Assembly: GCA_000092065.1 (NCBI GenBank)
Contig: CP000581.1
Direction: 5' to 3' (one strand)
Source: Ostreococcus lucimarinus
Taxonomy: Eukaryota
Length of the DNA: 64,000 bases
Shown here: positions 2,621 through 59,435 of the stretch, piece after piece
Layout of the letters: the number at the start of each line of letters is the position of its first letter
Numbering within the stretch: the stretch's first letter is position 1
Program-made: the position numbers and the translations under genes
The notes under the pieces: generated by a model
The model's input: only the letters and a program-made list of their open reading frames with translations
The model's database searches: none
What the model was told of the DNA's origin: nothing

Positions 2621-5600
2621 TCACGAGACGGAGACCGAGGTCATGTTCCACTCTAAGATGTCGACGGCTTGCCAGAGATCTCCCGTGGCGGCGGTGAAGC
2701 CGACCCACGCGCTGCCGCTCGTGGCGGAGTCGCGCAAGATGCTCTCGATGTTGAAAGGGACGCTCATCAGCGGTGAGGACATGTCGTCGAGGTAGACGGA
2801 GACGACTCCGAGGGAGTCGGCGGTGTGCGCGCTGAGGGCGGTGGACAAACCGGTGATTTCACCGGACTCGATGGCGAAAAACATCTCCTCAGAGGTGATG
2901 TTGGGCTTGTACGTGATGAAGACTTCGTGAATCTGACCGTCGGTGATGCTCGTCGTGGGCACGGAACCGTCAAGAGCGACGGTCGCGAGGCTCGCCGCCG
3001 AATGCGCCGTGTTTGGGGATTTACCGCGAGTGTGAATCGCGACGTGACTCTCACGTGGTTCGTTATATGCTGCGGTGAACACGGTGTCGAACTCGAACGC
3101 AATCGAATTGGTGATGCCACCGTATCCCAATCCGGGACCATCGAACCCGATGTCTGTCGCTCCCGGCGCCGAAGCGCTATCGTCGCGAATGACAAACGCA
3201 AAGCCGTCGCCGCCCGAAGTCGTACACTTTTCATAGAGCTTAGTGTGTAAAGACTGCACGAACGCACCGCTGACGCTCTCGGCGTAGTCACATGTGACTG
3301 TCGGTTGCGTGATCATGAACTTGAAGGTCACGTTGAATCCTTGCGCGACTTGCTGTTGCTGTGGATACCACACCGCGCCGCTCGCGTTTCGCACGGGATC
3401 GATGACCCGTAGTGCTTTGTAGTCGCACGCCCCGAGCTCGTCGGTTTCTTGGCTCGCCGTACGCGAGAGTCGTGTGCGCAGCGTCCCAAATGAGTCTATA
3501 CGTCTTGGTCCGCGAGCAGCATTTTGCGTGGTCGTCGTTTTCTGCCCAAAGTCTTGCGTCCACCAACCACCCGTAACGCGCCACGAGCCGCTCGCCCAGC
3601 TCCGCTCCATCTTTGAACTTTTCTTTTCCTCGCTCGCTTGCAGCCAAACCCGCTCACATGTTGGAGGTACGGGCTCGGGTTCAGTTCTCCAGTCGGCGAC
3701 GCACGTACACCGCTGATCGGCCCATTCTGCGACGTAGTCCAACACTCTCTCCGAATACGGGTTCCAGTCACGATCGAGACGTGACTGTGCCTCGGTCCAG
3801 TCTTCCGGCATACTCGCGCTCGTGGTGATGATTCCTAAATAGTTCGACCCCGTTTTCTTGCCGTGCAGTCTATGACCAGCCCGATACGTCGCCCCCGTGC
3901 AAAACGGATAAATAACACCGACGAATTCCGGTTTCACTTGCAACGCTTGATATTCGCTCGTATTCGTCACTCGACTACCAGTGACGACGACTGTGTTCAC
4001 CGTGTTCGGCACGCTCGTGGAGCTGATCACATCCGCTCGTCCGCTCACAAAAATCGACTGCCAAGAATCTAAATATTCTTGCTCGACGGAAGTGTAGCCG
4101 TATTCGACGCTTTCAGTGACATCAATAACTGCAGCGTTAGCAATCTGCGAATCCGGCTCGATGGTGTAGATCGTCTCCGTGTTCGTCGACGATTCGGTGT
4201 ACGTCAAAGATCCTCCTCGGATCTGTTCTTTCGTGAATGGACCGATCACTACACCGCTTGGAAGTTTAACGAGGAAGATTTCTTCGCACGCATTCGCGTT
4301 GGTCTTCCTATCCGTGGCATCCGCCGCTAAACACGAGCCACATGCGTCGAGCGTTTTACCGCTATTCGGCACGCCGTCACAACCGCAACATCCGCCGCCC
4401 CCCGCTGCACACGCGGTGATGAAAGCATCGGGGTCGCTACACCCGCTACCAACCTCGCCAACTTGTACGAGCAGCGTCTTCGCTCCCGAAACGGCGTCGA
4501 TACTATACATTCTTGTGTCGTCAGAGTCGTAGCACGCGTCTTGCACTTTACCGCTCGCGACGATGCCGTCGCAACCGACGCAATCCAAGCCGTTGCTACT
4601 CCCTCCACAAATCCCACACACATCCACCTCAGTCGATCCACCACACACATCGCAATCATCTGGATACAAGCCCTCTAACGGCCCTACCGGAAGCGGCGTC
4701 GCGCTCGTCGCACAACCTAAACAAGACGAAAGCTGCCCCTTGCAAACGCCGCACGCGTCGCGATTGTTTGTCACTTGCGGTAAAGCCGTGAGCTCTGGAT
4801 AGCACATCGTCGTACCTGGAACAGCGGCCTGCGTGGCGACGAGCGCCCATGCATCTTTGAACGCCTGTTCTGCCTGTTCATAGAGCGTCTGCGCCGCAGC
4901 CTTGTGTCTTGGTTCTACCAGCGCGCGAAACGTCGTCATCGTCGCCGCCGCCGCCGCGAACGCCTCTTGCCCTTGCGTCCATAAATTTTCTATCTGCGTG
5001 TGCTCGGCTGGTTTCACACCGTTGGGGTAGTACGATGCGCCGTCGATGCATTCACAACACAAATCTTGCGCGCTCGTCCCGAAAGCCACGCCGGCGCAAT
5101 CGCAGCACCAGCTCCACAGCGACGGATCCGTTCCCGAGCACCCGTTCCCGCCGCACACCCCGCACACGTCCATCACCGCTCCGCTATTCGCGACTCCATC
5201 GCACCCGACGCAGCCACCGAGATGATGATCCGGGACCCCCTCTCGCGAAAACGTCGCGTCCGTCGGCGCTTTACAATTCCCGCACGCGTCCGTCGTCGCG
5301 GCGCCGCCCGTGACGCTCGCGCAGTCCTCGCACGTGGCGTTAAACGTACACGTTATGGACGTATCGCTCTTATCGCACGCCGTCCCGCACGCCCCGCACG
5401 CATCGAACACCTTCCCACTGTTCGTCACGCCATCGCATCCCTGACACGCCGCGCCGTCCCCGCCGCACGTCCCGCACGCGTCCACGACGCGTTCGCGAAA
5501 CGCCGCCGTCCCCGCGTACGTCACCGTCGTCCCCGTCCCCGTCGACGGCATCACGCTGAACGCCCCTCGCGCCGGCACCGCGACGCTCGCGAGCGCGAGC

Positions 5601-5650
5601 ACCCCCCCCACGATCGCCCGCGCCGCCGTCGCCGGTCGTCGCCGTCCCAT
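2621..5650 (-). CDS. secreted cysteine-rich repeat protein with C-terminal L-type (legume-like) lectin domain
   Basis: Internal Met MGRRRPATAARAIVGGVLALASVAVPARG gives a signal-peptide-like start at 5650; the longer ORF to 6292 begins at an alternative codon and is low-complexity. Many tandem D-x-C-G-x-C-G-G-D/N-G...C-D-G-V-x-N-S-G modules follow. The C-terminal ~230 aa carries legume-lectin motifs (GDGFAFVI, LGYGG..NSIAFEFDT, HVAIHT, WVGFTAATGD). Confidence 0.7.
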   Translation of the reverse strand: MGRRRPATAARAIVGGVLALASVAVPARGAFSVMPSTGTGTTVTYAGTAAFRERVVDACGTCGGDGAACQGCDGVTNSGKVFDACGACGTACDKSDTSITCTFNATCEDCASVTGGAATTDACGNCKAPTDATFSREGVPDHHLGGCVGCDGVANSGAVMDVCGVCGGNGCSGTDPSLWSWCCDCAGVAFGTSAQDLCCECIDGASYYPNGVKPAEHTQIENLWTQGQEAFAAAAATMTTFRALVEPRHKAAAQTLYEQAEQAFKDAWALVATQAAVPGTTMCYPELTALPQVTNNRDACGVCKGQLSSCLGCATSATPLPVGPLEGLYPDDCDVCGGSTEVDVCGICGGSSNGLDCVGCDGIVASGKVQDACYDSDDTRMYSIDAVSGAKTLLVQVGEVGSGCSDPDAFITACAAGGGGCCGCDGVPNSGKTLDACGSCLAADATDRKTNANACEEIFLVKLPSGVVIGPFTKEQIRGGSLTYTESSTNTETIYTIEPDSQIANAAVIDVTESVEYGYTSVEQEYLDSWQSIFVSGRADVISSTSVPNTVNTVVVTGSRVTNTSEYQALQVKPEFVGVIYPFCTGATYRAGHRLHGKKTGSNYLGIITTSASMPEDWTEAQSRLDRDWNPYSERVLDYVAEWADQRCTCVADWRTEPEPVPPTCERVWLQASEEKKSSKMERSWASGSWRVTGGWWTQDFGQKTTTTQNAARGPRRIDSFGTLRTRLSRTASQETDELGACDYKALRVIDPVRNASGAVWYPQQQQVAQGFNVTFKFMITQPTVTCDYAESVSGAFVQSLHTKLYEKCTTSGGDGFAFVIRDDSASAPGATDIGFDGPGLGYGGITNSIAFEFDTVFTAAYNEPRESHVAIHTRGKSPNTAHSAASLATVALDGSVPTTSITDGQIHEVFITYKPNITSEEMFFAIESGEITGLSTALSAHTADSLGVVSVYLDDMSSPLMSVPFNIESILRDSATSGSAWVGFTAATGDLWQAVDILEWNMTSVSVS

Positions 5651-6104
5651 CGCGCGTCGTCGTCGCGTCGCGTCCCAACGACTCGCGCGTTGCGCGCGCG
5701 CCCGCCGCACCGCGACGCGCCCGCGCGCCCGCGGCGCGGTCGTCCGAGCGCGACCGCGCGTCGCGGGCCTCGCGTCGCGATCCGCGGCGTCGCGGCGCCG
5801 GCGCGCGCGCGTCCGCGCGCGCGGGCCGCCCGCGGCGGTCGCGCGGGCGCGACGGCCGCGGGTGTTCGGACATTTCGTAGCTGCACAAACAGTGTGACGA
5901 AAACTACCGATTGCACGCGCCACGCATAGAACGCAAAAAAACCCGATCGAGGTCCGCGCGCGGTGCGTTTTATATCGAGCAAATCTCGCGCGGCGAAGAT
6001 ACGATAACGGCGAAGATACGAGGCGCGACGACGCCCGTCGGCGCGCGGCACACTCGCGCGGGCCCGGCGCGACGCGCGCGCCGCACGCGACGACGACGCG
6101 AACG

Positions 6105-8030
6105 ATGGCGATGGCGCCCGCGCGCGCGGCGACGCGCGGCGCGACGACGATGCGGCGAAACGCGACGCTCGGCGGAGGACGAACGATGGGACGCGCGATG
6201 GTCGTCGCGGGACGCGACGCGGGACGACGACGCGCGGTGGGGACGCGCGCGGTGCAGACGCCGATGAAACCGGCGGAGGAACGCGAGTCCACGGAAGAAG
6301 CGGCGCCGTTCGAGAGGGAGTATAAGGATTACGCGACGGGATACGCGTCGGTGCCGGGGCTGGCGTACGAAAACATGGGTTGGGTGACCGAGGTGGAGGG
6401 CGAGATCCCGAAGGAGATGGTCGGGACGCTGCTGCGCAACGGGCCGGCGATGTACGAGAGAGATGGGTTCGTGAAGAGTTATCTCGATGGGGACGGTATG
6501 GTGACGTCGATCGCGATCAAGGATGGGAAGGCGTACTTTCGGAACAAGTTCGTGCGCACGGAGCACTTCGATAAGGAGGAGGAACTCGGGAAGTATACCG
6601 AACCGAGCATCTTCACCGCGAGCGATCCGAGAAAGCCTGCGTTCTTTTATAGATTGTTTAACGATATTTTGGGGGGGGATCTCTCGCGTAAGCAAAACGG
6701 GGCGTACAACGTGTTGAACTGGGGCGATTCGCTCGTCGCCGTGGATTACAAAAAACCGTACGCGTTGAACCCGGATACTTTGGAAACTATCGGTCACGGT
6801 GCGTGCGATTTGTCTTCCGTCATGCACACGTCTCACTACCGCACTGTCACCGAGCCCGATGGTAGCCGTCGTTGCGTGGCGTTCTTGAATGAAGTCGACT
6901 GGCGCGCCAACGCTGGCGTCGGGACTACGAAAGCCGTCTTCTATGAGTTTGACGAACAAGGCAAGGAAGTGTCTCGTCGTGCGTACGACTACCCGGCTTC
7001 ATACGTGCACGATTTGGTCGTCACCGAAAACTACTACATCTTGTTCGATTGCCCGATCAAGATAGATTTCCCGGCCGTCTTCACAAAGTACATCTTTGAA
7101 AGATCGTGCTTGTCCGAGCTCATCTGCGAAGACACCGAACGACGCCCATTATTCCGTATTTTCCCGCGCCGTGGTGATTCGAGAGAAGTTCAAACCGCTC
7201 CGGCCGATTATTGGTGCTACGCCTACCACCATGTGAACGGTTTTGAAGATAAGGATGGCAACGTCGTCTTCGACACGTGTACTTGGGATAAGTTCACGTT
7301 GTACTTTACCGATATTTGCAACCCGAACGGTAAGGACAACTACCCGCGTATGAAGTTGAGCCGATTCTTGATTGATATGAAGAAGCTCGAAGCCAAGCAC
7401 ACTGAGTTAAGCGACGTTCCGTGCGAGCTCCCGATTACTAGCTGGGACTACACTGGGGCGCCGTATGAGCACATGTACCTCAGCACCTCCGTCGGTCGAA
7501 CCGCAGAAGGTGTCAACGGCCCGATGCAGGCGCTCACCAAGGCGTCGCTCAAATCTGATGGTGATAAGCTCTACTACGAGGAACAGTGGGTGCCGGGTGA
7601 CAGAAAGTTCGCCATGGAGCCCTTCTTCGTGCCACGGCCTGGAGGCACGGCGGAGGACGATGGTTGGGTCGTCGCGCTCGTCCACGATGCTGCGTACGAT
7701 AAGAGTACGTTCGGTGGTCGTGGTACCGAGATGGTGATCATTGATGCTCAAAAGTTCTCCGAAGGTCCGGTCGCGCGACTTCGCTTGCCCACGTACGTGC
7801 CGTTCGGCGTGCACGGTTCGTGGAGCCCGAAGTACGTCGCGGGTCCGCCCAAGGAAGACGAGCTTGCGAGATTAGCTGAGATGCGCGCGAGAAACGACGG
7901 CAAGGCCATCAGTCTCGGCGCGAGTGCGGCAGAACCGGTGATTCACAACACGCCGACGCCGCAGGCGATCGGTCTGACCGTCGCCGGTATCGCCCTCGGC
8001 ATCACCGCGTTCAGCACGATTCTTCAATAA
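6105..8030 (+). CDS. carotenoid cleavage dioxygenase (RPE65/CCD family), probably organelle-targeted
   Basis: 641-aa ORF with CCD family motifs (YAYHHVNGFED, EPFFVPR) and conserved His positions. It has an Arg/Ala-rich N-terminal presequence and a C-terminal hydrophobic helix IGLTVAGIALGITAFSTIL. ATG at 6105 checked. Confidence 0.85.
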   Translation: MAMAPARAATRGATTMRRNATLGGGRTMGRAMVVAGRDAGRRRAVGTRAVQTPMKPAEERESTEEAAPFEREYKDYATGYASVPGLAYENMGWVTEVEGEIPKEMVGTLLRNGPAMYERDGFVKSYLDGDGMVTSIAIKDGKAYFRNKFVRTEHFDKEEELGKYTEPSIFTASDPRKPAFFYRLFNDILGGDLSRKQNGAYNVLNWGDSLVAVDYKKPYALNPDTLETIGHGACDLSSVMHTSHYRTVTEPDGSRRCVAFLNEVDWRANAGVGTTKAVFYEFDEQGKEVSRRAYDYPASYVHDLVVTENYYILFDCPIKIDFPAVFTKYIFERSCLSELICEDTERRPLFRIFPRRGDSREVQTAPADYWCYAYHHVNGFEDKDGNVVFDTCTWDKFTLYFTDICNPNGKDNYPRMKLSRFLIDMKKLEAKHTELSDVPCELPITSWDYTGAPYEHMYLSTSVGRTAEGVNGPMQALTKASLKSDGDKLYYEEQWVPGDRKFAMEPFFVPRPGGTAEDDGWVVALVHDAAYDKSTFGGRGTEMVIIDAQKFSEGPVARLRLPTYVPFGVHGSWSPKYVAGPPKEDELARLAEMRARNDGKAISLGASAAEPVIHNTPTPQAIGLTVAGIALGITAFSTILQ

Positions 8031-33248: not shown

Positions 33249-34813
33249 TCAACGCCTCGTCGGCGCGGTGTTTTGACGAAGGATGTTGTTTCGACTCTTG
33301 ATCGCTTTGCTACCGCTGCCCTCGTTCGCTATCGCTCCCACTTGCATGTACGGATATTCTCCGGCATGTCCGAGCAGACGCGGCGGAAATTCTAATGTTC
33401 CGAGCGCGAGGGTCGTTACCGATTTAAGTTTTTCACTCGATACCGGCGTGAGGATGTAAACGTAGCGGTTGTCAACATCGATTCCTCTCACGACGCCGAC
33501 GCCGACGCATTCAGCGCAATAGCGTCCAGGTGCGGCGGATTTCAACAGTCCGACGACCGCACCGTTGAGCGCCATCAGCGCCTCGCGCGCATCCAAATCG
33601 CTTTGCAATACGTGCAAAGTGATGTCGTCAAACGACACGCGCCACGGTGTCGCCGTCGTCAAGTCGAAAGCCGTCGCCGCGAACGCTTCGTTTTCGCCCA
33701 AATCGTCCAGTTCGAGAGCGCCTTCGTGAGGTCGCTCGTTGCACATCGCCACTGTTTGTCGAGACCAAGCGAGCCAGGACAACGCGCGCGAATCGCTGGG
33801 TGACCTTTTCGTGTCTTTCGACTTCGTCCCGCCCGGAGACGCATCGTTCGCGATGTTTTCGTACGTTTCTACGCTCGTCTCCTCTGTCTCCGCGTCGGCG
33901 CCCTTTGGCGCCGTCCCGAAACCGGCGGCGACTTCGTACGTCGTCACTCGCGGGTTCGAAGTCTCCGGAACGTTTGCGTCGTGAAACCAGTACACATCGT
34001 CGGGCACGTTCCTACTCGCGACGTGCGAATTTATGTTAATCACGTAACACGATTCCGTGCTTCGACCGACGGCGCGCAGAATTTCCTCCGCGAGCTCCAA
34101 TCCGAGTCCCTTCACCCAACCGCTCGCGTTCACCACGAGCGCCGGTTTGTCTTCACCCAGCGCCGCCCACGCGTCGACGCACGCGAGTGCCCCTTCGACG
34201 TACGCGTCTGGATCGCCCTGCGGGCTCACGTCGCCGACGAAGCTCGCGTACAGCGGCGCGCTCGGAGCGCCCTCGAATTCCGCGCCGCTCGCCTGATGCG
34301 TCTGCGGCGGCCCGAGCAACGGCGCGCGTAAAATCGTCAGCGACACCATCCCGGGCGCCGTCAACTCGGGCTGTCCACAATCCAAATCCAACCACCCACA
34401 CACCCCTCGTTCGCGCAAAATCACGTTCGCCGCGTGCCGAGCGAGCGTGCTCTTCCCCACGCCCTTCGGCCCGACGAACGCCGCCGCGAACGCCTCCCTC
34501 GTCCTCGTCGCCGCCTCCCGCACGCGCGTCAGCGCGCGCTCCCAATCTCTCGACACCATCGTCGGCGTCCATCCCAACGCCCGCGCTTCCCTCGCCCCGC
34601 ACACCGCGTACGCCCCGCCGCCGCGCACCGCTCGGAACTCCAACGTCGCCCCGCCGCCGCCGCTCGCCGCGCACGTCGTCGCGCTCGCCATCCCCGCCGC
34701 GCTCCGCACCACCACCTCCTCCGCCGTCGCCCGCGACGCCGCGAGCGCGTACCCGCCGACCGTCACCGCGCCATCGACGCACCGCGCGACGCACGCGCCG
34801 TCCACGCACGCGA

Positions 34814-34848
<35 letters not shown>

Positions 34849-34982
34849 CGCGAAAGCGCGATCGTTCGACGCTCGACGCCGTACGGCGCGCGAACGGCGC
34901 GCGTCGCGCGCGCGTCGTCGCCGTCGCGCGCGCCGTCGTTTTCAGCGCGCGCGCGCGACGCGCGGCGCTTCCTCGGCGGCAT
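33249..34982 (-). CDS. GRC3: polynucleotide 5'-hydroxyl kinase GRC3/NOL9 (Clp1 family)
   Basis: Clp1-type P-loop FVGPKGVGKSTLARH, the N-terminal beta domain and the C-terminal Clp1 domain are present. A (GD)n run GDGDGDGDGDG lies near the N-terminus. ATG at 34982 checked. Confidence 0.75.
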
Positions 34983-35020
34983 CGAGTGCGGCGACTCGAC
35001 GCGCGCGACTCGACGACGCG

Positions 35021-36001
35021 ATGCCGCGCGCGACCGCGACCGCGACGGCGCGCGCGACGGCGCGCGCGACGGGACGCGCGCGGACGCGGACGCGGACGCG
35101 GACGCGCGCGCGCGACGCGCGACGCGCGCGCGACGGCGACGCGCGACGCGGGACGGACGCGGCGGCGGCGACGCGACGCGACGCGAACGCGCGACGCGTG
35201 ACGAGCGCGCGCGCGACGGGACGCGACGCGAACGCGCGACGGACGTGCGAGGTGCACGACCTGTCGACGGCGCTGACGCCGTACGACGAGGCGTGGGCGT
35301 GGCAGCGAGGATTTCTCGAGCGCGCGCTCGAGCGCGGCGACGACGCGAACGACGCAGCGATACTGCTGCAACACCCGCCGACGGTGACGCTGGGCGCGGG
35401 ATCGACGGTGGATAACTTGAAATTTAACGTCGATCGACCGCCGACGGGGTTCGAGGTGCGACGGTGCGAGCGGGGGGGGGAGGCGACGTATCACGGGCCG
35501 GGGCAGTTGGTGCTGTATCCGATTCTAAACTTGGCGCGCGCGCCGCACGAGGCTGATTTGCACTGGTACATGCGCGCGCTGGAATCCGTGGCGCTGGAGG
35601 CGATGATTGAGTTAGGGTTGGACGCGGCCAAGTGCGGACGCGTGGATGGGTTGACGGGGGCGTGGTGCGACGGGCACAAGGTGGCGGCGGTGGGCGTGCG
35701 CGCGCGACGATGGGTGTCCTACCACGGCGTCGCCCTGAACGTCTGTCCCGACCTCTCGCACTTCGCCAACATCATCCCGTGCGGCATAGGCGATAAACCG
35801 GTCGGTAGCGTCTCCCAGCTCTTGCGAGGGGACGTCGGTCTGGTGAGTTCGGCGTCCGAAGCCACGCCGCTCGTCCCTCGCGAGAGCGCCGACGCCGACG
35901 ACGTCGCGTTGATGCTCGACGCTCGCGACGCCTTCCTGAGCGCGTTCGCGCGCGTGTTCGATTTAGATTTAGAAATCACTCCGACCAAGCCATCGTTTTA
36001 G
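35021..36001 (+). CDS. LIPB: octanoyltransferase LipB (lipoyl(octanoyl) transferase) with Arg/Ala/Thr-rich presequence
   Basis: LipB core motifs are present (LLQHPPTVTLG, RRCERGGEATYHGPGQLVLYPIL, CG..DKPVGS, with the catalytic Cys/Lys region). The first ATG in frame is 35021, and the preceding 278 codons of ORF 34187.. are antisense to GRC3. The ~85-aa N-terminal RTRTR/ARD repeat tract is probably an organellar targeting peptide. Confidence 0.8.
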   Translation: MPRATATATARATARATGRARTRTRTRTRARDARRARDGDARRGTDAAAATRRDANARRVTSARATGRDANARRTCEVHDLSTALTPYDEAWAWQRGFLERALERGDDANDAAILLQHPPTVTLGAGSTVDNLKFNVDRPPTGFEVRRCERGGEATYHGPGQLVLYPILNLARAPHEADLHWYMRALESVALEAMIELGLDAAKCGRVDGLTGAWCDGHKVAAVGVRARRWVSYHGVALNVCPDLSHFANIIPCGIGDKPVGSVSQLLRGDVGLVSSASEATPLVPRESADADDVALMLDARDAFLSAFARVFDLDLEITPTKPSF

Positions 36002-38314: not shown

Positions 38315-40345
38315 CTACCACACGTCCTGATGGTATCTAAACTCTGCCTTCAGGCGACGTAAAATCTCCTCCGCTTCGTGCGCCGCGTAGTCGCCCTCGC
38401 GCATCAACACACTCAGGAGCGCCTTGTTCACATCCTTTGCCATGTTCTTCGCGTCACCGCAAATGAACACCGCGCCCTCGTTTTTGCCCACGGTACCTTT
38501 GACGATTGGGTACACCGTCGACGCCTTTTCGATAATCTTGTCCTGCACGTACACCTTCTTCGGCCCGTCGCGGCTAAACGCCACGTCCAGGTCGGTAATC
38601 ACGCCCTCTCGCAACGCGGTCTGCATCTCTGCTTCGTATATGAAATCGCGATCTTTGTTACGGCATCCAAAGAACAGCATCGCCGGGCCTAACTTGGCAC
38701 CAGAAGCTTGAAGCGCCGTGCGCTCTTGCAAGAAACCTCGGAAAGGGGCGTAGCCGGTGCCTGGTCCAATCATGATAACAGGCGCTTCTGGATTTGTCGG
38801 CAGTCGGAAAGTGCTCGTTCGCACGAAAATCGGAATCTTTTGGCCTTCAGCCGCGCGCTGTAAGAATGTACTCGCGACACCTTCGTGCATGCGACCGGTG
38901 AAGACTTTCTCTTTGACGACGGCGACGGTGGCGGTGACGACGTTTTTGTTAGCCGCCGGACTTGAGCTGATGCTGTAAAATCGAGCCGCTAAACGAGGCG
39001 CAACGGCGCCAAAGAATAATCCAATATCTGGAACAGCGCTGGAGTAGTCCTCCATCACCTCCAAAAGCGATCTGTGGGGCTTCGTTATGTACTTTGCGAA
39101 TTCATCCTTGCCCGCCGGCGAGGCTAAAAAGGCGAGCTTTTCTGCGTCCTTGCCCGAAGCGACGGAGGCGAGCGCAGCGAGCGCTTGCTTTCGAGGGGGC
39201 GTTAAAACGTCCGCGTACCGCGCAATCGCATCTCCGACCGTCATGGGCGTCGCGAACGGCTCGGCGAGCGACGCAGGAGCACCACTCGGCTTCACCAAAC
39301 GGAAGACCTCGTCGACGTCGAGCTTCAGCGCTTTGGCTACGCGCTTCGTGACGTCCTTACCGTTCTCCGCAAACACGCCCAAGTGGTCGCCCGTCTTGTA
39401 CTGCACGCTCGAGCCTGAAATATCAAACTCTACGTGAACGCAACTTCGATCGGCATCTTTACTGAAGAGTTCGCGCACAACTTTGACGGAGGAGAGGTAC
39501 GGCTTTGCCGCCGTCGGCGCGACGCGCGTGTTAGAGTGCTCCTTTTCGTATTTGGCCGCCTGACTCGCCGCTGCGCGCTCGCCGTCGCTACCACGCATAA
39601 TGATGACGTCGTAACGAGGCAACTCCTCGTCGCCGCCGTCGGAATGTAAACCAAACTTGGCCTCGAACGCGGGCCAAAACGCCTCGATCCAATTTTCAAA
39701 GTCTTGCTCCAAGCACTGGTCGTCGTCTCCCAAGTGAAGCTTCAGCAGCGGTTGAGCGCCTAAATCCACCAAAGCCTTGTGAACCATCTTCGCCGCCGCG
39801 TTGAACTGTTCGTAGCAACGATTACCGAGCCCGAACACGCTGAACGTTACGTTTTCCAACAAATCCGGCATCCGCCCGTCGCTCGCGCAGTCCCGCGCCC
39901 AATACACGAAATCCGAGCTCGTATCCGTCGGTTCCCCGTCCCCGTACGTCGATTGCAGAAACACACAGCACCCGGTCTCCGCCACGAGCGCGTCCTCGGC
40001 GTGCATGGAATCCACGGTTTCGAGATCCACCGCGCGCGCCGCCACGGCGGCGCCGTACCGCGCGCGCGCGTGCGCCACCACCTCCCGCGCGTACCGCTCG
40101 CTCGTCCCCGTCTGCGTGCCGTAAAACACGCTCAGACGCACTTTCCCCGCGTCGTCGAACGTCTCTTTCGCCGTCGCCGGCGCCCGCCCGCGACCGAGCG
40201 CGCCGAACCACGACGCCGTCGTCATCGTCCCATCTTTCCCCGTCGCGTTCGACGCCGCGCGCACCGCGATCAACCCGACGACCGAGGCGCAGAGCACGGT
40301 CGCGCTCGCGAGCACCAGCGCGTCGCTCGACGCGAGCGCGTCCAT
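38315..40345 (-). CDS. CPR: NADPH-cytochrome P450 reductase
   Basis: N-terminal membrane anchor, then a flavodoxin domain (SVFYGTQTGTSERYA), an FAD-binding motif RFYSISSSP, an NADPH-binding motif GPGTGYAPFRGFLQER and the C-terminal ...DVW end. Confidence 0.9.
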   Translation of the reverse strand: MDALASSDALVLASATVLCASVVGLIAVRAASNATGKDGTMTTASWFGALGRGRAPATAKETFDDAGKVRLSVFYGTQTGTSERYAREVVAHARARYGAAVAARAVDLETVDSMHAEDALVAETGCCVFLQSTYGDGEPTDTSSDFVYWARDCASDGRMPDLLENVTFSVFGLGNRCYEQFNAAAKMVHKALVDLGAQPLLKLHLGDDDQCLEQDFENWIEAFWPAFEAKFGLHSDGGDEELPRYDVIIMRGSDGERAAASQAAKYEKEHSNTRVAPTAAKPYLSSVKVVRELFSKDADRSCVHVEFDISGSSVQYKTGDHLGVFAENGKDVTKRVAKALKLDVDEVFRLVKPSGAPASLAEPFATPMTVGDAIARYADVLTPPRKQALAALASVASGKDAEKLAFLASPAGKDEFAKYITKPHRSLLEVMEDYSSAVPDIGLFFGAVAPRLAARFYSISSSPAANKNVVTATVAVVKEKVFTGRMHEGVASTFLQRAAEGQKIPIFVRTSTFRLPTNPEAPVIMIGPGTGYAPFRGFLQERTALQASGAKLGPAMLFFGCRNKDRDFIYEAEMQTALREGVITDLDVAFSRDGPKKVYVQDKIIEKASTVYPIVKGTVGKNEGAVFICGDAKNMAKDVNKALLSVLMREGDYAAHEAEEILRRLKAEFRYHQDVW

Positions 40346-41031
40346 CGCGCGCGGCGAACTCGCGCGCCGCGCCTTCGCGCGCGCCTATGCGCGCACGCGC
40401 CTCCCCTATGCGCGCACCAGTGACGACGCCATTACGCAAAACTTACGCGCCCGCGATCGTCGATTCGCTCGCCCCGCGCGCGAGATTCGCCCATCATCCT
40501 GAAGATAAACTCACACATAAAACGCTACTCGGACAAACGACATGGCGTCAGGATCGCTTCAATGTGCGGTCACCCGCGCCGTCGCGATCGCGCGGTCGTC
40601 GTTCGAAACGACCGGCGGCCGCCGCCGCGTCGACGCGCGGCACGTCCACGCGCGCGACGACGCGGCAAAGCGACGCGCGATCGAAGCGACGCGGCGACGC
40701 GACGCGACGCGACGCGATCTCGCGCGAGGCGAGATTCGGGCGACGCTCGAGCGCGCGCGACGACGATACGGACGGTAATCGCGTCGCATCGGACGCATCG
40801 CGTCGCGACCTATCCATCCGACCGCGGGGCGCGGGCGCGCGGTGACGCGCGCGGCGTTCGACGGGCGCGACGGCGCGCGGGAAACGCGAGATAAAGGGTG
40901 GTTCGCGATCGCTCGGGGTGAGACGCGCGCTCGGGCGACGGTGAGGCGCGCGCGCGAGGGTCGAGGAGACGGACGCGGGCGACTGGGCGCCGCGACGCCG
41001 GACTCGAGACGCGGGACGCGCGAGAGGGACG

Positions 41032-42327
41032 ATGACGGCGTCGAGAGGCGACAGCGCGATGATGGGCGACGATGAGATGGCGGCGGGAGCGATCGGGGCG
41101 ATGCAAGGGGCGGCGTTCGCGGCGTTTGCGAATCCGGTCGATTTGAGCGCGACCCCGCCGACGCGGGGGTTCGCGGTGGGGAGCGCGCCGGGATTTTATC
41201 CAGGGGTTGGTGGTGCGTTGGCGGGGGCGTCGGGGATCGGACGAGGTGGAAATATGATCGCAGGGACGTCACCGAACTTTTTGGCGGGAACGTCGCCGGG
41301 ATCGCTCGGGTCGTCGCCGTCGTTTTACGGGTCGTCGCCGACGGCGATTCCGCAAGTCGTTCGGCCGAAGGCGCCCATGGACCGCGGGATCGGGTTTCCG
41401 GGATTGTCTTCCTCGCTTCCGGGTAAGCATCACATCGGATCTCCTAATAGTGGATTTAGTGCGTTTAGTCCTCCGATGAACTTGAAGGACTCGCCGCGAG
41501 CGATGGCGCACTTTTCGTCCTCGCCTCCAGTCAAGTCGGGCGGCGTGCACAAGCCGCCGTCGGGCGCGACGAAGGCGAAGAAGATGGAGATCGCCCGAGC
41601 TGCGGTCAACGAGGTGACTGCTGCGGCCGTAGCCGTGTCGTCGATGCCCGGCGCTTCGATGAGCGCGTCGATGCCGCTGAACTCGAGCGGTAAACCGCAA
41701 AAGAGTGTGTACCGAGGGGTTAGACAACGGCCGTGGGGCAAGTACGCAGCCGAAATCAGAGACCCCACGCGCGGGTCAAGGCTTTGGTTGGGTACGTTCG
41801 ATTCTGCCGAAGAAGCGGCTTTGGCGTACGACGCCGCGGCTCGTGCGATCCGCGGCGACGCCGCAGTGACGAACTTTGGCAAAGACGTTCCGATCCCAGC
41901 GTCTGTACGAGCGCAGTTGCCTCCGCTTCCGACGCGTCCGGTGCAAGGCAGAGGCGGGACGCCGCGAGACGACAGCGCGTTGTCCGGGCGCATGTCAAAA
42001 TTGTCGACTTCGAATAAGCCTGCGAAGAACCTTGAAGAAGAGGCCGAGATGTTACTCATGCTTCAAGCCGCGGATAGCGATACGAAGACGAGCACGCCTG
42101 ACAAATCTGATTCGGTGGAGGACCAAGCCACGGGAATGGATCTCGAGGAAGATAACGGGGCGAGTTCGGTGACCGTTGGCTTGACTTTGCGCGCGCAAAA
42201 GTCCAACGCTCCGCCAAGTGCTCCCGCGCCGGCAGCAAGAATTCAGCAGACCGATGCATCTAACGCGATGATTTCGGCGTTGAAGGCTTCGACCGTCAGT
42301 ACGCGTACGCGCCGCGGCGGCGCGTAA
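41032..42327 (+). CDS. AP2/ERF domain transcription factor
   Basis: A single canonical AP2 domain [56 protein letters not shown] is flanked by low-complexity G/S/A-rich regions. ATG at 41032 checked. Confidence 0.85.
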
Positions 42328-53567: not shown

Positions 53568-55092
53568 AAAACCAGAAATTGACGCTCACGGACGAGGTCA
53601 AGGAACGGACGTAGTGCCAGTGACCTTTGGGCATGAACAGGACGTCGCCGGGCGCGAGGATGGTTTCCAGAAACTTTGCGGCGAGCGCGCGGGGATGCTC
53701 GCGAGAGACGGTCGGGCTCTCGGGATCGACGGGCGACCGGGTGAAATTATTCACGTTTGAGCCGCGCAGGGTGTCGGTGTCGGCGACGTAAAGGTGTGGA
53801 GTCTCACTCACGGCGTAGATGCGGACGTATTTGTACCCGGATACTTGGCAGAGGAGGTTGAGGTACGGGTCGCGATGAATCGCGGTTCTCGTGCCGGCCG
53901 TGCCCAGCCACAGGTTGACCGCGGATGTCTCCACGCGAAGCCTGCCTAAGGTGTACGGAATCACCGTGAACGTGCTCTGAAGTTCGGGTATTTGGTGGAA
54001 TATCGGGTGCTGCGAGACGTACGCCACCTTGTCGCTCGTCGGCGCGCCGTCGTGCGCCGCGTTGGAAGGCGCGAGAAAATCGCGCGCAAACGATCCGAGC
54101 GTGGTGATCCCGACGCCGTGGCTATCGAACGCCGTACCGTATTCCACGGGAACGATTGTGTCCGCATACTTTTCGAACGCGTCGAGATTTTTAAAAACGT
54201 CCAACGCGGCCCAGTTCTCGCCGTCCTCGTCGAGATGGCCTCGAATCACGACCGGAGTCTCCGAGGCGACGAAGTCTGCGTAAAATCGCGGCGCCGTTAA
54301 CGAGCGCGCGTCCTCGAAATGAATCTGTCGGCTCGGTTCGATCGTCGGAACCCCACTCATCGGTAGCGTCGTCGGAATCGCGCTGTTCAAAGGAAACGCC
54401 CGGCGTCCCTCGGCGTCGTCGGGCTGAAACGCGCGTTCGACGAGTAAAATGGCGCTCGCGCACCACGTCGGAACGCACCCTCGCTCGAATAACGTCGTCG
54501 CGGTGAGTAAATCCAACCCAATCCTCCCCAGCCGCTCTCTCGCGCTCCATTCCGCCCCCCGACACGCCGCGCTCGCCGTGGGATCGTCCTCGAGCGCGCC
54601 TTCGTCGACGTCTTCCCCCGCGTCGCTCGCCGTCGCCGCGACGCCCGCGACGACGAGCCATCCGTGCGCCAGCGTGTGCGCCTCCAAGAACCCACTCACC
54701 GGCCAATTCCCTCGTCCCAACTGTTCGCCGCACGCCTCGATCGTCCGTTTCGCCCATCGCGCGCACGCGTCCCACGTCTCCGCTCGCGCGTTCGCCGCGC
54801 ACCTCGCGAGCGCGTCCCTCGCGCGTCGTCCGCTCGGCGCGAACTCCTCCAGCTCCGCCGCCGTCGACGCCCACCCCGCGTCGTGCGCGCGCGCGATTTC
54901 CTCCGCCACCGCTCGCGCGTCGCGCGTCGCGCCGTCCCTCGCGCGCGCGCCGCTCCACAGCTCGCGCGCGTTTTCGAAGAACGCGTGCGTCGCCGCCGCG
55001 CGCGCGTCCCTCGCGTCGTCGCGCGCGCGCGCCGTCGTCGCGCGCGCGCCGTCGTCGCGCCCGAACGCGTCCCACGCGTCGGCGGTCGCCAT
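53566..55092 (-). CDS. JmjC-domain 2OG/Fe(II) oxygenase (hydroxylase/demethylase-like)
   Basis: A C-terminal JmjC cupin carries the Fe-binding HxD...H (TAIHRDPYLNLLCQVSGYKYVRIY ... LFMPKGHWHYVRSL). The start was set at the internal ATG 55092, because the longer ORF begins at TTG 55494 through low-complexity sequence. The stop at 53566-68 was verified. Confidence 0.7.
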   Translation of the reverse strand: MATADAWDAFGRDDGARATTARARDDARDARAAATHAFFENARELWSGARARDGATRDARAVAEEIARAHDAGWASTAAELEEFAPSGRRARDALARCAANARAETWDACARWAKRTIEACGEQLGRGNWPVSGFLEAHTLAHGWLVVAGVAATASDAGEDVDEGALEDDPTASAACRGAEWSARERLGRIGLDLLTATTLFERGCVPTWCASAILLVERAFQPDDAEGRRAFPLNSAIPTTLPMSGVPTIEPSRQIHFEDARSLTAPRFYADFVASETPVVIRGHLDEDGENWAALDVFKNLDAFEKYADTIVPVEYGTAFDSHGVGITTLGSFARDFLAPSNAAHDGAPTSDKVAYVSQHPIFHQIPELQSTFTVIPYTLGRLRVETSAVNLWLGTAGTRTAIHRDPYLNLLCQVSGYKYVRIYAVSETPHLYVADTDTLRGSNVNNFTRSPVDPESPTVSREHPRALAAKFLETILAPGDVLFMPKGHWHYVRSLTSSVSVNFWF

Positions 55093-55674
55093 GCGCGCGC
55101 CGCTGTCGCGACGTCGCGTCTTCGCGGCGGCGCGGCGCCGATCGACACAGAACGACGCTCGGATGCCGGCCGAGGAAGACGCCGTCGAGCTCGGCTCGTG
55201 CTTCGAGCGGTTCACGAGCGCGGTGTGCGCGTCGTCGGCGTTCGGCGCGGTCGTCGGGTGCGCGCGCGCGGCGTGGGGGGCGGACGCGCCCGCGGTGTTC
55301 CGATCGCGCTCGTTTCCCGCGGTCGCGAAGACCGCGGGCGCGCTCGCGAGCGGCGCGGCGCTGTTCGGCGCCATCGGAGGCGCGTACGCGAGCGTGACGT
55401 GCGCGGCGGAGAGCGCGCGGAACGCGAGGGACGCGTACAACGGCGCGCTGGGGGGGCTGGCGAGCGGCGCGGTGGTGGGGTTGCGCAACGGCAAGGTCGG
55501 ACACGCGGCGAGCGCGGGGGCGGCGTTCGCGCTCGCGAGCGCGGCGGTGGACGCGTCGGGACGGAAGATCGCGCGAGGCGACGCGTGGGAAGACAGGGCG
55601 ACGCCGGAGCGGATCGCGTATCCGTATCGCGAAAGACGCTAGGGCGAACGCGAGGCGATCGAGTCGAGCGGGAC

Positions 55675-55711
<37 letters not shown>

Positions 55712-55955
55712 AGGCGCGCGCGCGTCGGAGACGCACCGCGAGGACGGACGAGTCGATGCCGCGATCGTCATCGCGATCGACGCCGCGCGCGTATTGTAAC
55801 ATCATTCGAGGACGTGAAGTCGAACATCTTCGTCGCGCGCTTCGATTTCGCGGCGTCGAATTGAGATTCAAACCACCCGCGACAGCTCCTCCATAAATCG
55901 CCGCTCGACGTCCGCGCGCGCCTCGCACTCGCGCGCGGACGTCGACGCGATCGGC

Positions 55956-57779
55956 ATGGGCATCGCGTCCCTCCTTCCGACGCTGAAATCCATCTCAAGA
56001 CACGCGCACGTCGGCGAAACGTACGCGGGACAAGTCGTTTGCGTCGACGCCTACGTCTGGCTTCATCGCGGTGCCTACGCGTGCTCGCGCGAGCTGTGCG
56101 AGGGATTGCCGACGCGCAAGCACGTGGAATACTTTTTAAATCGCGCGCGAACGCTGAAACGGGCGAACGTGCGGGCGATATACGTGTTCGACGGTGGACG
56201 ATTGCCGGGGAAGGCGAACGAGGAGGCGCAGCGGAGACGAAATCGAAGCGAAGCGCTGGCCAAGGCGAAAGCGCACGCGAGGCAGGGGAACGCGAGCGCG
56301 GCGAATGATTTTTATGTGCGAGCGGTGGATATCACGCCGGAGATGGCGCGGGAGGTGATCGAGGCGCTGGCGAGGGAAGGATTCGAGAGCTTGACGGCGC
56401 CGTACGAGGCGGATGCGCAGATGGCGTACTTGGTGAAGAATGGCTTCGTGGCGGGAGTGATCACGGAGGATAGCGATTTGATCGCGCATGGGTGTCGGAG
56501 CGTGTTCACAAAGATGGCAGGTGATGGTTCTGGCATAGAAATCCGCTTCGAGGAGTTGGGGAGGAATCGCGGGTTGAGTTTCGTCGGGTTCACGCCCGAT
56601 ATGTTTTTGGAAATGTGCGTACTCAGCGGGTGTGATTATTTACCGTCTTTGAACGGCGTGGGGGTGAAGAAGGCGCACAGCCTGATTCGAAGATTCAAAA
56701 CTTACAATAAGGTCTTGCGTCACATGAAGTTTGAGGGGATAGCGGTGCCGAAGGATTACGAGTCGCGTTTCGTCGACGCGTTGCTCACGTTCAAATATTC
56801 GTGGGTGTATTGCCCGCAAAGGCGAGAGATCGTGAACTTGAACGATCCAGTGGGGGTGTTGGATCAGAGTTTGATTGACGACTTACCGAGACTCATAGGT
56901 GCGTATCATCCGCCCGAGGTAGCGAGAGCGTTGGCGAACAACGAGGTGCATCCAATGACGCTCGAGGCTTTCGGCGGAGTGCGAGCGCCTCATCGTCGAC
57001 AGCACATAGCCGCGTTGGCGCCATCGACGAGCGCGCCGATCCTAAGGCCTGAAGACGCATGTGACGACGACGCGCTCGGCGCGCTGCCGGAAAGACCTTT
57101 GACATCGACGAAGCAAAACGCTTTCACGAGTTTTTTGCGCGAAAAGCCCGAGGACGACGTGCAGACGTATCGAGCTGCGCTCGTGCGCGCAAGTGCACCG
57201 ATGCAAATCGTGCAGCCACCTCGCGTCGGAAAGTCGTTTTACGCCGCGATCCAGGGTCACGAGATTAAAACGCCGCTGGATAAGCGGCTGCGTAGACAGA
57301 GTACGGATCGCCCGATCGTGGCCCGCGAAGAGGCGCTGAGAGTGCCGGACTCGGTGGAGAAGATCACGCCCAAGCATAACTCGCGATTGCCGAAGGATAT
57401 TTCAAACATTACGGGACGCGTGATTTACGAAACACCGATCGTGCAGACGTCAGTGAAGAAGAGTCCATACTTTGCGAACGTGAAGACGCCGCCGAAATCA
57501 ACCGGACCATCCGAGTTGTACGCAAAGATCGCGAAAGATTCGATCGATCGAGTCAAACAGAGCGTACATGTCGAACTCGGCGTCGCGGAACCTTCGACAC
57601 ATGCCACCAAGCGCCAAGAACGAACGCCGACGAGAACGACACCCGCGAGAGCGGCGAAGAAGTCTCGCGCCGCCGGGACGTCGTCGAGCAGACGACGCGG
57701 CGACGGACAAAAGCGAAAAACCGGTAACGACAAGTTTTGGCAAATGTCGCTCTTCGAGTCGTTCGCGTTCGAAAAATAA
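55956..57779 (+). CDS. EXO1: exonuclease 1 (XPG/Rad2 family 5'-3' exonuclease)
   Basis: The XPG-N domain (MGIASLLPTLKSI...VCVDAYVWLHRG) and XPG-I domain (VITEDSDLIAHGC) with the H3TH fold, followed by a disordered C-terminal tail. ATG at 55956 checked. Confidence 0.85.
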   Translation: MGIASLLPTLKSISRHAHVGETYAGQVVCVDAYVWLHRGAYACSRELCEGLPTRKHVEYFLNRARTLKRANVRAIYVFDGGRLPGKANEEAQRRRNRSEALAKAKAHARQGNASAANDFYVRAVDITPEMAREVIEALAREGFESLTAPYEADAQMAYLVKNGFVAGVITEDSDLIAHGCRSVFTKMAGDGSGIEIRFEELGRNRGLSFVGFTPDMFLEMCVLSGCDYLPSLNGVGVKKAHSLIRRFKTYNKVLRHMKFEGIAVPKDYESRFVDALLTFKYSWVYCPQRREIVNLNDPVGVLDQSLIDDLPRLIGAYHPPEVARALANNEVHPMTLEAFGGVRAPHRRQHIAALAPSTSAPILRPEDACDDDALGALPERPLTSTKQNAFTSFLREKPEDDVQTYRAALVRASAPMQIVQPPRVGKSFYAAIQGHEIKTPLDKRLRRQSTDRPIVAREEALRVPDSVEKITPKHNSRLPKDISNITGRVIYETPIVQTSVKKSPYFANVKTPPKSTGPSELYAKIAKDSIDRVKQSVHVELGVAEPSTHATKRQERTPTRTTPARAAKKSRAAGTSSSRRRGDGQKRKTGNDKFWQMSLFESFAFEK

Positions 57780-58490: not shown

Positions 58491-58582
58491 CGCCGCGCGT
58501 CGATCGCGAGCGCGCTCGCGCGCGTCGTCGTGTGGCCGTCGCGCGCGCGCGGTCGCGTCGATTCGTCACTCGGCCGCGCGCC

Positions 58583-59311: not shown

Positions 59312-59435
59312 GACGTAGTCATTTCGCGGTCGAGCCGAGAAACGCCGCGATCGAGATGAATGTGTTTTGTAGCACTATTTTACAAGCAAGCGTGTATCGA
59401 TACAACCCCGATCCGAGAATCCGAGGTCTCCCGTC

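What the first reader, a model, noticed from the sequence alone, without database searches (positions are those of the whole stretch)
2621..5650. Giant secreted protein combining tandem CxCGG cysteine-knot-like modules with a C-terminal legume-type lectin domain
More than 15 repeats of D-x-C-G-x-C-G-G-D/N-G..C.GCDGV.NSG..xDxCGxCG precede a well-conserved L-type lectin domain. The lectin carries all hallmark motifs, including the metal- and sugar-binding loop region (LGYGG..NS.AFEFDT, HVAIHT, GFTAATG). L-type lectins in non-plant or unicellular lineages are usually ER cargo receptors. Here the domain sits on a ~1,000-aa secreted, repeat-rich protein, which suggests a cell-surface or cell-cell recognition function such as gamete, scale or virus-receptor roles.
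Basis: partly seen in the sequence, partly recalled or inferred. Interest (0 to 1): 0.5.

Follow-up and report, generated by a model that had tools for sequence, protein, structure and literature searches.

The report
Secreted prasinophyte lectin with ADAMTS-like repeats
This is a real gene of the tiny marine green alga Ostreococcus lucimarinus that encodes a 1,009-residue secreted protein made of cysteine-rich spacer modules, an unknown conserved middle region and a sugar-binding-type (legume-type lectin) end domain; databases already label the lectin part, but nobody has studied what the protein does.

Summary
A single intron-free ORF (minus strand, ATG 5650 to stop 2621) encodes a 1,009-aa protein. 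It has an N-terminal signal-peptide-like segment, 50 cysteines and a C-terminal L-type lectin domain. Pfam PF00139 scores 41 bits against a cutoff of 26.3, and Foldseek matches legume lectins at E~1e-8.

Three details are wrong or overstated:
- There are 16 CxxC pairs, forming about 6 full ~28-aa modules plus 4 half-modules. That is not more than 15 full repeats.
- The modules are not cystine-knot-like. They are homologous to the C-terminal tip of the ADAMTS cysteine-rich domain (module profile vs ADAMTS5 E=1e-9, vs ADAMTS13 E=2e-7).
- The Ca2+/sugar-binding Asn of the lectin loop is Thr859 here, and the neighbouring aromatic residue is Val.

The protein is already in public databases (XP_001415928.1; UniProt A4RRM5, 'Legume lectin domain-containing protein') but is uncharacterised. 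Orthologues with the same architecture occur in other Ostreococcus, a Bathycoccus-like lineage (inferred from GC content), Pycnococcus/Pseudoscourfieldia and Prasinoderma.

About 280 conserved residues between the repeats and the lectin have no detectable relatives outside this family.

Most likely role: a secreted ligand-binding or adhesion protein of a wall-less cell. This is inferred and untested. Interest is modest.

The parts
2621..5650 (-). Complete single-exon CDS, 1,009 aa plus stop (TGA at 2621-2623). Equals XP_001415928.1 / UniProt A4RRM5.
   Evidence: The upstream ORF extension 5651-6292 has no ATG, is Arg-rich and overlaps the neighbouring gene on the other strand.
5564..5650 (-). 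Signal-peptide-like N-terminus (aa 1-29: basic n-region, 14-residue hydrophobic core, PARG|A).
   Evidence: This is the only Kyte-Doolittle peak above 1.4 in the protein. AF2 models a helix at 7-21. Orthologues have equivalent N-termini. No signal-peptide predictor was available.
5045..5482 (-). Cys-rich array I (aa 57-202): one half-module plus four CxxC-x12-CxxC modules of ADAMTS-CR-tip type.
   Evidence: Weak direct Pfam hit to PF19236, positions 90-112, E=0.13. The cysteines are nearly invariant across 24 homologues.
4760..5044 (-). Nearly Cys-free insert (aa 203-297; one Cys, C283) predicted as a helical hairpin (helices 215-242 and 251-275).
   Evidence: AF2 pLDDT ~80. This is one of the two least conserved regions in distant homologues, together with midA (13-32% identity).
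4286..4759 (-). Cys-rich array II (aa 298-455): three half-modules, two full modules and an intervening segment.
3923..4285 (-). Family-specific beta-rich domain 'midA' (aa 456-576) with a conserved GP(F/Y)T..E(L/I)..G motif.
3440..3922 (-). Family-specific conserved region 'midB' (aa 577-737) with invariant YPxCTG, HRLHGKK, WNP, DQxCxC, PPTC, GGWWxQDxG and RGPxR motifs. Fold unknown.
   Evidence: Invariant columns. AF2 pLDDT <50 over about 577-717. The profile finds only 36 representatives among 1.84 billion proteins; the complete ones are already-identified family members and none shows a different architecture. Nothing in the PDB.
2624..3439 (-). L-type (legume-type) lectin domain (aa ~738-1009).
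   Evidence: PF00139 41 bits > 26.3; PF18483 E=1.9e-13. Foldseek to Man-specific legume lectins, the M. jannaschii lectin domain 7elv, YwfG, VIP36 and ERGIC-53. Homologues at E down to 1e-39 carry PF00139/PF18483.
3044..3094 (-). Metal/sugar-binding loop C (aa 853-869, EFDTVFTAAYNEPRESH). Glu853, Asp855, Glu864 and His869 are kept. The canonical Asn is Thr859 (codon 3074-3076) and the aromatic residue is Val857.
   Evidence: Ungapped alignment to peanut lectin and 7elv. Family and outgroup alignments.

Best explanation
The locus is one intron-free nuclear gene of Ostreococcus lucimarinus. It encodes a soluble, secretory-pathway, disulfide-rich modular protein.

Domain order: signal peptide; two arrays of ~28-aa ADAMTS-cysteine-rich-tip-like modules separated by a helical hairpin; a lineage-restricted ~280-aa region (one confidently folded beta-rich domain plus one conserved segment of unknown fold); and a C-terminal L-type lectin beta-sandwich.

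Shown: the architecture, the homology of each known module, the conservation, and the absence of any membrane anchor.

Inferred mechanism:
- The protein is exported to the surface or surroundings of this wall-less cell.
- The Cys-rich arrays act as rigid, disulfide-stapled spacers or interaction modules, as the equivalent segment does in ADAMTS proteins.
- The lectin domain is the ligand-binding head. Ancestrally it was a Ca2+/Mn2+-dependent glycan binder.
- In O. lucimarinus the Asn-to-Thr and Trp-to-Val changes in loop C probably alter, or may abolish, canonical monosaccharide binding. The domain is nevertheless still under purifying selection.
- The likely role is extracellular glycan or ligand recognition and adhesion (glycocalyx organisation, cell-cell or cell-particle contact).
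For: Gene and identity:
- Single ORF and exact database identity.
- The N-terminal segment is the only hydrophobic stretch.

Lectin domain:
- Pfam hit above threshold.
- Structural match to legume lectins, E~1e-8, TMt up to 0.69.
- Homologues of the lectin domain alone reach E=1e-39.
- Glu853, Asp855 and His869 are invariant; Asp815 and Gly842-Gly845 are conserved.

Cys-rich modules:
- The module profile hits ADAMTS5 at E=1e-9 and ADAMTS13 at E=2.4e-7.
- Homologues' modules hit PF19236 positions 86-115.
- The cysteine pattern is non-random and conserved.

Conservation:
- CCD-lectin-GTPase synteny is kept in another Ostreococcus.
- Full-length transcripts exist for orthologues.
- The family occurs in Pycnococcus, Pseudoscourfieldia and Prasinoderma.
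- All domains are 43-74% identical among Ostreococcus-type orthologues.
Against: - There is no experimental or localisation evidence, and no signal-peptide predictor was run.
- Thr859 and Val857 replace two residues that are central to Ca2+/sugar binding. They are Asn and aromatic in all outgroup lectins and in the other genera. Carbohydrate binding in this species is therefore uncertain.
- PF18483 scores below its curated cutoff.
- The best-conserved orphan region (577-737) has no predicted fold. It could carry the real activity.
- The spacer role of the Cys modules is an analogy, not a test.
Confidence: 0.55

Rival explanations
1. The lectin fold is kept but has been repurposed. In Ostreococcus (except O. 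tauri) the canonical Ca2+/monosaccharide site is lost. The domain then binds a non-carbohydrate ligand or another protein, or is purely structural.
For: Thr859 replaces the Asn, and Val857 replaces the aromatic residue, in O. lucimarinus and five other Ostreococcus-type orthologues. O. tauri and all other genera and outgroups keep Asn. The substitution is fixed in environmental variants.
Against: The other metal ligands (Glu853, Asp855, Glu864, His869), the loop A Asp815 and the loop B glycines are all retained. The domain is as conserved as the rest of the protein (61-70%). A Thr hydroxyl could still contribute to a binding site.
Confidence: 0.22
2. The protein is an extracellular enzyme. The orphan conserved region (aa 577-737, with invariant His593, His596, Asp638, Asp645 and four Cys) is a new catalytic or metal-binding domain. 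The lectin serves as a carbohydrate-binding targeting module.
For: The region has dense invariant polar and His residues. ConA-like/L-type lectin domains do occur fused to other functional domains in relatives (CHRD, PNGase-labelled proteins).
Against: No match to any Pfam, NCBIfam or PDB family. AF2 gives no confident fold. No recognisable catalytic motif such as HExxH is present.
Confidence: 0.1
3. It is a specific recognition receptor, acting as a prasinovirus attachment factor or decoy, or as a gamete-recognition protein.
For: It is predicted to be secreted and carries a lectin fold. The same Cys-rich module occurs as perfect tandem arrays in giant-virus MAG proteins. The protein evolves somewhat faster than its neighbours (63% vs 71-84% identity).
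Against: No membrane anchor. Conserved synteny and what appears to be one orthologue per lineage (paralogues were not specifically searched) across deep prasinophyte lineages. Only 1-4 amino-acid differences among environmental O. lucimarinus-type sequences. The literature places viral resistance genes on the small outlier chromosome (PMC5371798), whereas this gene lies on the 1.15-Mb contig, which I take to be chromosome 1. No paper links this protein to infection or mating.
Confidence: 0.1
4. It is an ER-Golgi cargo receptor of the ERGIC-53/VIP36 type.
For: VIP36 and ERGIC-53 appear among the structural matches, at E~2e-6.
Against: No PF03388 hit. No transmembrane segment or C-terminal sorting tail. 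Legume, archaeal and bacterial lectins match better. The 450-residue Cys-rich N-terminus is foreign to that family.
Confidence: 0.02

Closest known systems
Bacterial/protist L-type lectin-domain proteins (Pfam PF18483/PF00139), e.g. oomycete 'Legume lectin domain-containing protein', bacterial 'Bacterial lectin', Lactococcus YwfG, the M. jannaschii lectin domain 7elv
   Same: Same lectin fold and sequence family: 30-38% identity over ~90% of the domain, E down to 1e-39. Three cysteines (C742, C787, C809) are shared with the stramenopile members. The domain sits on a secreted or surface protein.
   Different: Those proteins are mostly short (250-500 aa), or carry CHRD, PEP-CTERM or cell-wall anchor modules. 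None listed has the ADAMTS-CR-like arrays or the 280-aa orphan region. They keep the Asn/aromatic pair that is Thr/Val here.
Legume seed lectins (e.g. Centrolobium, Pterocarpus, pea, peanut lectins)
   Same: Best structural matches: Foldseek E~1e-8, TM ~0.6. The Glu/Asp/His metal ligands, the loop A Asp and the loop B Gly align.
   Different: Only ~17-18% identity. Seed lectins are single-domain oligomers. Asp132 is Glu864 here, Asn127 is Thr859 and Tyr125 is Val857.
C-terminal tip of the ADAMTS cysteine-rich domain (Pfam PF19236 positions ~86-115; ADAMTS5 9rwm, ADAMTS13 3ghm)
   Same: The 27-aa motif [25 protein letters not shown] is shared almost residue for residue.
   Different: ADAMTS proteins have one copy, at the end of a larger Cys-rich domain, next to protease, disintegrin, TSR and spacer domains. 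Here the motif is iterated and partly degenerate, and none of the other ADAMTS domains is present.
Tandem [26 protein letters not shown] arrays in protist surface proteins and giant-virus MAG proteins. A similar Cys pattern, CGXCGGXXXXCXGC, is described for amoebozoan integrin-beta-like proteins.
   Same: Same module. Hits include integrin-beta/VWA, Patched/RND, CUB and REJ-containing proteins. Giant-virus ORFs carry 6-9 perfect copies. The Cys pattern is described in bioRxiv 10.1101/2020.04.29.069435.
   Different: Those proteins lack the lectin domain and the orphan middle region. Their arrays are regular, whereas the Ostreococcus arrays are interrupted and degenerate.

Membership tests
L-type (legume-type) lectin domain, Pfam PF00139 / PF18483 | Profile-HMM match at or above the curated threshold | tested here: met
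   PF00139 41.0 bits against a cutoff of 26.3, E=2e-10, aa 790-1006. PF18483 gives E=1.9e-13 but 51.2 bits, below its 78.3 cutoff.
L-type (legume-type) lectin domain, Pfam PF00139 / PF18483 | ConA-like beta-sandwich fold | tested here: met
   AF2 pLDDT 71-93 over ~720-1009. Foldseek to legume lectins E~1e-8, and to 7elv with TMt 0.69.
L-type (legume-type) lectin domain, Pfam PF00139 / PF18483 | Mn2+/Ca2+ ligands Glu, Asp, Asp and His in the E-x-D...D...H loop | tested here: met
   Glu853, Asp855 and His869 are invariant in the family. The second Asp is Glu864 (Glu or Asp in homologues).
L-type (legume-type) lectin domain, Pfam PF00139 / PF18483 | Loop C Asn (Ca2+ ligand and sugar H-bond donor) with an adjacent aromatic residue | tested here: not met
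   Thr859 and Val857 in this protein. Asn and Trp/Tyr are present in O. tauri (Asn only), in the other genera and in all outgroups.
L-type (legume-type) lectin domain, Pfam PF00139 / PF18483 | Loop A Asp and loop B Gly of the monosaccharide-binding triad | tested here: met
   GGD815GFAF and G842-Y-G-G845 align with the ADG and GG motifs of reference lectins. They are invariant or nearly invariant.
L-type (legume-type) lectin domain, Pfam PF00139 / PF18483 | Actual carbohydrate binding | not testable with these tools
   Needs a glycan array or ITC with recombinant domain.
ERGIC-53/VIP36 cargo-receptor lectins (PF03388) | PF03388 match, type I transmembrane segment and cytosolic sorting tail | tested here: not met
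   No PF03388 hit at E<=1. No hydrophobic segment outside residues 7-25; the protein ends ...NMTSVSVS.
ADAMTS cysteine-rich domain (PF19236) / ADAMTS proteins | Match to the whole 115-position Cys-rich domain, plus reprolysin, disintegrin, TSR and spacer domains | tested here: not met
   Only profile positions ~90-112 match, at E=0.13 and 12.7 bits, below 21. No other ADAMTS domains were found.
ADAMTS cysteine-rich domain (PF19236) / ADAMTS proteins | Homology of the repeated module to the C-terminal GCDG...[11 protein letters not shown] motif | tested here: met
   Module profile A5 against the PDB: ADAMTS5 E=1e-9; ADAMTS13 E=2.4e-7. The profile includes three window modules, giant-virus MAG modules and modules modelled on family homologues.
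Cystine-knot domains | Match to a knot family, or six Cys in knot topology | tested here: not met
   No cystine-knot Pfam family at E<=10 on the Cys-rich segments. The spacing CxxC-x12-CxxC matches the ADAMTS motif instead. Disulfide topology itself was not determinable.
Plant L-type lectin receptor kinases | Lectin ectodomain plus a transmembrane helix plus a kinase domain | tested here: not met
   No kinase Pfam hit and no transmembrane segment.

The most novel reading that the evidence does not exclude
The family would be an ancient, prasinophyte-wide extracellular recognition system. It is present in Mamiellophyceae, Pycnococcaceae and the early-diverging Prasinoderma.

In this reading, the orphan 280-aa region is a new ligand-binding or catalytic domain that works together with the lectin head. 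The system would organise the glycocalyx of naked picoalgae or mediate attachment of particles such as prasinoviruses or bacteria.

The perfect arrays of the same ADAMTS-CR-like module in giant-virus proteins would then reflect host-virus exchange or mimicry of this surface scaffold.
Probability: 0.12. Interest if true: 0.6.

Novelty: new variant of a known kind. Interest (0 to 1): 0.33.

Why it matters
Ostreococcus and its relatives are among the most abundant marine picoeukaryotes. Ostreococcus has no cell wall or scales, so its few secreted adhesive proteins are prime candidates for contact with viruses, bacteria and mates.

This protein is one of very few lectin-domain proteins reported in prasinophyte genomes (PMC6362431). 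It is conserved from Prasinoderma to Ostreococcus.

It carries a well-conserved region with no relatives elsewhere. It also shows a natural Asn/Thr difference between O. tauri and O. lucimarinus at the key sugar/Ca2+ position, which is an easy handle for experiments.

Even so, both recognisable module types are well known and the lectin domain is already auto-annotated. The finding is a useful characterisation rather than a surprise.

Tried and rejected
- Pfam, NCBIfam and PDB sequence searches on the middle region found nothing.
- Foldseek against viral structures gave only generic ConA/LamG-like tail-fibre matches.
- The afdb50 fold library was unavailable.
- A recent 'cysteine-rich repeats' HGT preprint (bioRxiv 10.64898/2026.06.07.730663) describes a different Cys spacing and is not the same module.
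- Literature searches by accession and by topic found no study of this protein. The 'OtL' Ostreococcus tauri lectin in PMC6723950 is a homology model only, and its identity with the O. tauri orthologue is unverified.
- tblastn of the protein against the rest of the window found no paralogue.
- The long upstream ORF extension (to 6292) was rejected as coding. It has no ATG, is Arg-rich, and overlaps the divergent neighbouring gene.
Full report
**What is at the coordinates.**
- The window is Ostreococcus lucimarinus CCE9901 DNA. The flanking ORFs are exact or near-exact matches to its GTPase (XP_001415927.1) and its carotenoid-cleavage dioxygenase, on a 1.15-Mb contig.
- On the minus strand an ORF runs from 6292 to 2621. 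Its first in-frame ATG is at 5650. The upstream 214 codons are Arg-rich, contain no Met, and overlap the start of the divergent dioxygenase gene.
- From ATG 5650 the product is 1,009 aa. It is identical to XP_001415928.1 / ABO94220.1 ('predicted protein'), which is UniProt A4RRM5 ('Legume lectin domain-containing protein').
- The gene model and its lectin label therefore already exist as automatic annotation. No paper in the searchable library mentions the accessions or studies the protein.

**Checking the observation.**
- The protein has 50 cysteines, 43 of them between residues 59 and 455.
- In residues 30-455 there are 16 CxxC pairs, against 4.3+/-1.9 in 20,000 shuffles (maximum 12).
- There are five exact CxxC-x12-CxxC units against 0.04 expected, plus a sixth variant at 357.
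- Written out, these are six ~28-aa modules (first Cys at 69, 107, 147, 182, 357, 421) and four lone DxCGxCGG half-modules (57, 298, 331, 343).
- The only hydrophobic stretch is residues ~7-25, following MGRRR. This fits a cleavable signal peptide. There is no C-terminal anchor.

**The lectin domain is real.**
- Pfam PF00139 matches aa 790-1006 at 41 bits (cutoff 26.3, E=2e-10). PF18483 matches at E=1.9e-13 but below its own cutoff.
- An AlphaFold2 model built with 24 homologues gives pLDDT 71-93 for ~720-1009.
- Foldseek matches mannose-specific legume lectins at E~1e-8. It also matches the Methanocaldococcus jannaschii legume-lectin domain 7elv (TM 0.69), Lactococcus YwfG, VIP36 and ERGIC-53.
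- Searched alone, the domain finds lectin-domain proteins of Tetraparma, Phytophthora, Globisporangium and Guillardia (E 1e-39 to 1e-31, 35-38% identity). After those come many bacterial 'Bacterial lectin', CHRD-lectin and PEP-CTERM proteins.
- In alignments, Glu853, Asp855 and His869 are invariant. The second acidic ligand is Glu864. The loop A Asp815 and loop B Gly842-Gly845 are conserved.
- The Asn that ligates Ca2+ and hydrogen-bonds the sugar in legume lectins (PNA Asn127; established knowledge of the family) is Thr859. The neighbouring aromatic residue is Val857.
- Five other Ostreococcus-type orthologues share the Thr. O. tauri keeps Asn (EFDTVYN). Other genera and all outgroups have E-F-D-T-W/Y-x-N.
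- 'All hallmark motifs' is therefore overstated, and canonical sugar binding in this species is uncertain.

**The Cys-rich modules.**
- Homologues that share only the N-terminal part carry Pfam PF19236 (ADAMTS_CR_3). The match always covers only its last ~25-30 positions.
- The window protein itself reaches only E=0.13.
- A 28-column profile was built from three window modules, giant-virus MAG modules and modules modelled on family homologues. It matches ADAMTS5 (9rwm, [27 protein letters not shown]) at E=1e-9. It matches ADAMTS13 (3ghm, 3vn4, 6qig) at E~2.4e-7.
- The modules are thus iterated copies of the C-terminal tip of the ADAMTS cysteine-rich domain. They are not cystine knots.
- The same module occurs in very diverse protist surface-type proteins, including integrin-beta/VWA, Patched/RND, REJ and F5/8-C architectures.
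- A preprint describes a similar Cys pattern, CGXCGGXXXXCXGC, in amoebozoan integrin-beta (10.1101/2020.04.29.069435).
- The module also occurs as 6-9 perfect tandem copies in ORFs of giant-virus MAG contigs, one of which also has a CUB domain.

**The rest of the protein.**
- Between the two arrays lies a nearly Cys-free insert (one Cys, C283) predicted as a helical hairpin, with helices 215-242 and 251-275 and pLDDT ~80.
- Residues 577-737 are strongly conserved. Invariant motifs include YPxCTG, HRLHGKK, WNP, DQxCxC, PPTC, GGWWxQDxG and RGPxR. They get pLDDT <50 over about 577-717.
- A profile of 456-745 finds only 36 representatives among 1.84 billion proteins. The complete ones are already-identified family members, the rest are short fragments, and none shows a different architecture. 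It finds nothing in the PDB.
- This ~280-residue region is the truly unknown part.

**One gene, conserved.**
- Twenty-three homologues align collinearly over the whole length. Among Ostreococcus-type orthologues every domain is 43-74% identical, and the count of 16 CxxC pairs and ~50 Cys is preserved.
- In another Ostreococcus contig the dioxygenase-lectin-GTPase order is the same.
- A Bathycoccus-like orthologue (locus GC 46%) is a single 1,240-aa ORF in a different neighbourhood. MMETSP transcriptome ORFs of 1,240 and 1,230 aa span the signal peptide through the lectin end.
- Named members include Pycnococcus provasolii and Pseudoscourfieldia marina ('lectin domain-containing protein', 1,705 aa) and Prasinoderma coloniale. 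The architecture therefore spans deep prasinophyte lineages.
- The protein diverges somewhat faster than its neighbours (63% vs 71-84% identity to the same relative).
- Environmental O. lucimarinus-type copies differ by only 1-4 residues, and none of the differences is at position 859.

**Interpretation.**
- Shown: a secretory-type, anchor-less, disulfide-rich modular protein with ADAMTS-CR-tip-like arrays, a helical insert, an orphan conserved region and an L-type lectin domain.
- Inferred: export to the surface or medium of a wall-less cell; the Cys arrays acting as rigid spacers or interaction modules; the lectin acting as a ligand-binding head, with a remodelled site in most Ostreococcus.
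- Rivals considered:
  - a repurposed non-sugar-binding lectin fold;
  - an enzyme whose catalytic part is the orphan region;
  - a virus or gamete receptor;
  - an ER cargo receptor, effectively excluded by the missing membrane anchor and the absent PF03388 match.
- A scale-related role is unlikely, because the family is present in scale-less Ostreococcus (established knowledge).

**Verdict.**
- This is a correct and mostly accurate observation of an already auto-annotated but unstudied protein.
- It is a new domain combination of known module types plus one lineage-restricted region.
- Interest is modest.
- The most useful experimental handle is the natural Asn/Thr difference between O. tauri and O. 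lucimarinus in the metal/sugar loop.

Noticed in passing
window 5651-6292 (minus strand): The ORF stays open for 214 codons upstream of the true ATG. These codons are Arg-rich, contain no Met, and overlap the dioxygenase gene start on the plus strand. Several metagenomic gene calls (P0001 at 1,099 aa, P0133 at 1,082 aa, P0004 at 1,054 aa) include such spurious N-terminal extensions.
   Followed up: partly
O. tauri orthologue XP_022838293.1 (P0266) vs P0006: The public O. tauri model (759 aa, 'Concanavalin A-like lectin/glucanase, subgroup') starts at an internal Met inside the helical insert. A 97.8%-identical metagenomic ORF of 1,031 aa includes the signal peptide and the first Cys array. The O. 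tauri annotation therefore looks N-terminally truncated.
   Followed up: partly
L005:888-5849 (+) and L007:4587-6179 (+), giant-virus MAG contigs from IMG/VR: These ORFs carry 6-9 near-perfect tandem copies of the same 28-aa module, [26 protein letters not shown]. The L005 ORF also has a CUB domain. The next ORF, L005:6326-8077, is made of FNQ(D/N)IxxWNTSxV repeats.
   Followed up: partly
Protein cluster of P0015: MDA9081546.1, labelled 'Candidatus Dependentiae bacterium', is a 607-aa fragment in the >=90% identity cluster of the Bathycoccus-like orthologue. It is probably a eukaryotic contig mis-binned into a bacterial MAG. Similarly, P0303 is labelled 'archaeon' but sits among protist-type lectin homologues.
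   Followed up: no
window aa 859 (nt 3074-3076) and orthologues: There is a lineage-specific Asn-to-Thr change at the Ca2+/sugar-binding position. Thr is found in O. lucimarinus and five other Ostreococcus-type sequences. Asn is found in O. tauri and in every other genus and outgroup examined.
   Followed up: yes
window, 2-kb bins at 34001-36000, 40001-42000, 54001-56000 and 58001-60000: These bins have GC 0.68-0.71 against a background of 0.54-0.65. They were not examined further.
   Followed up: no
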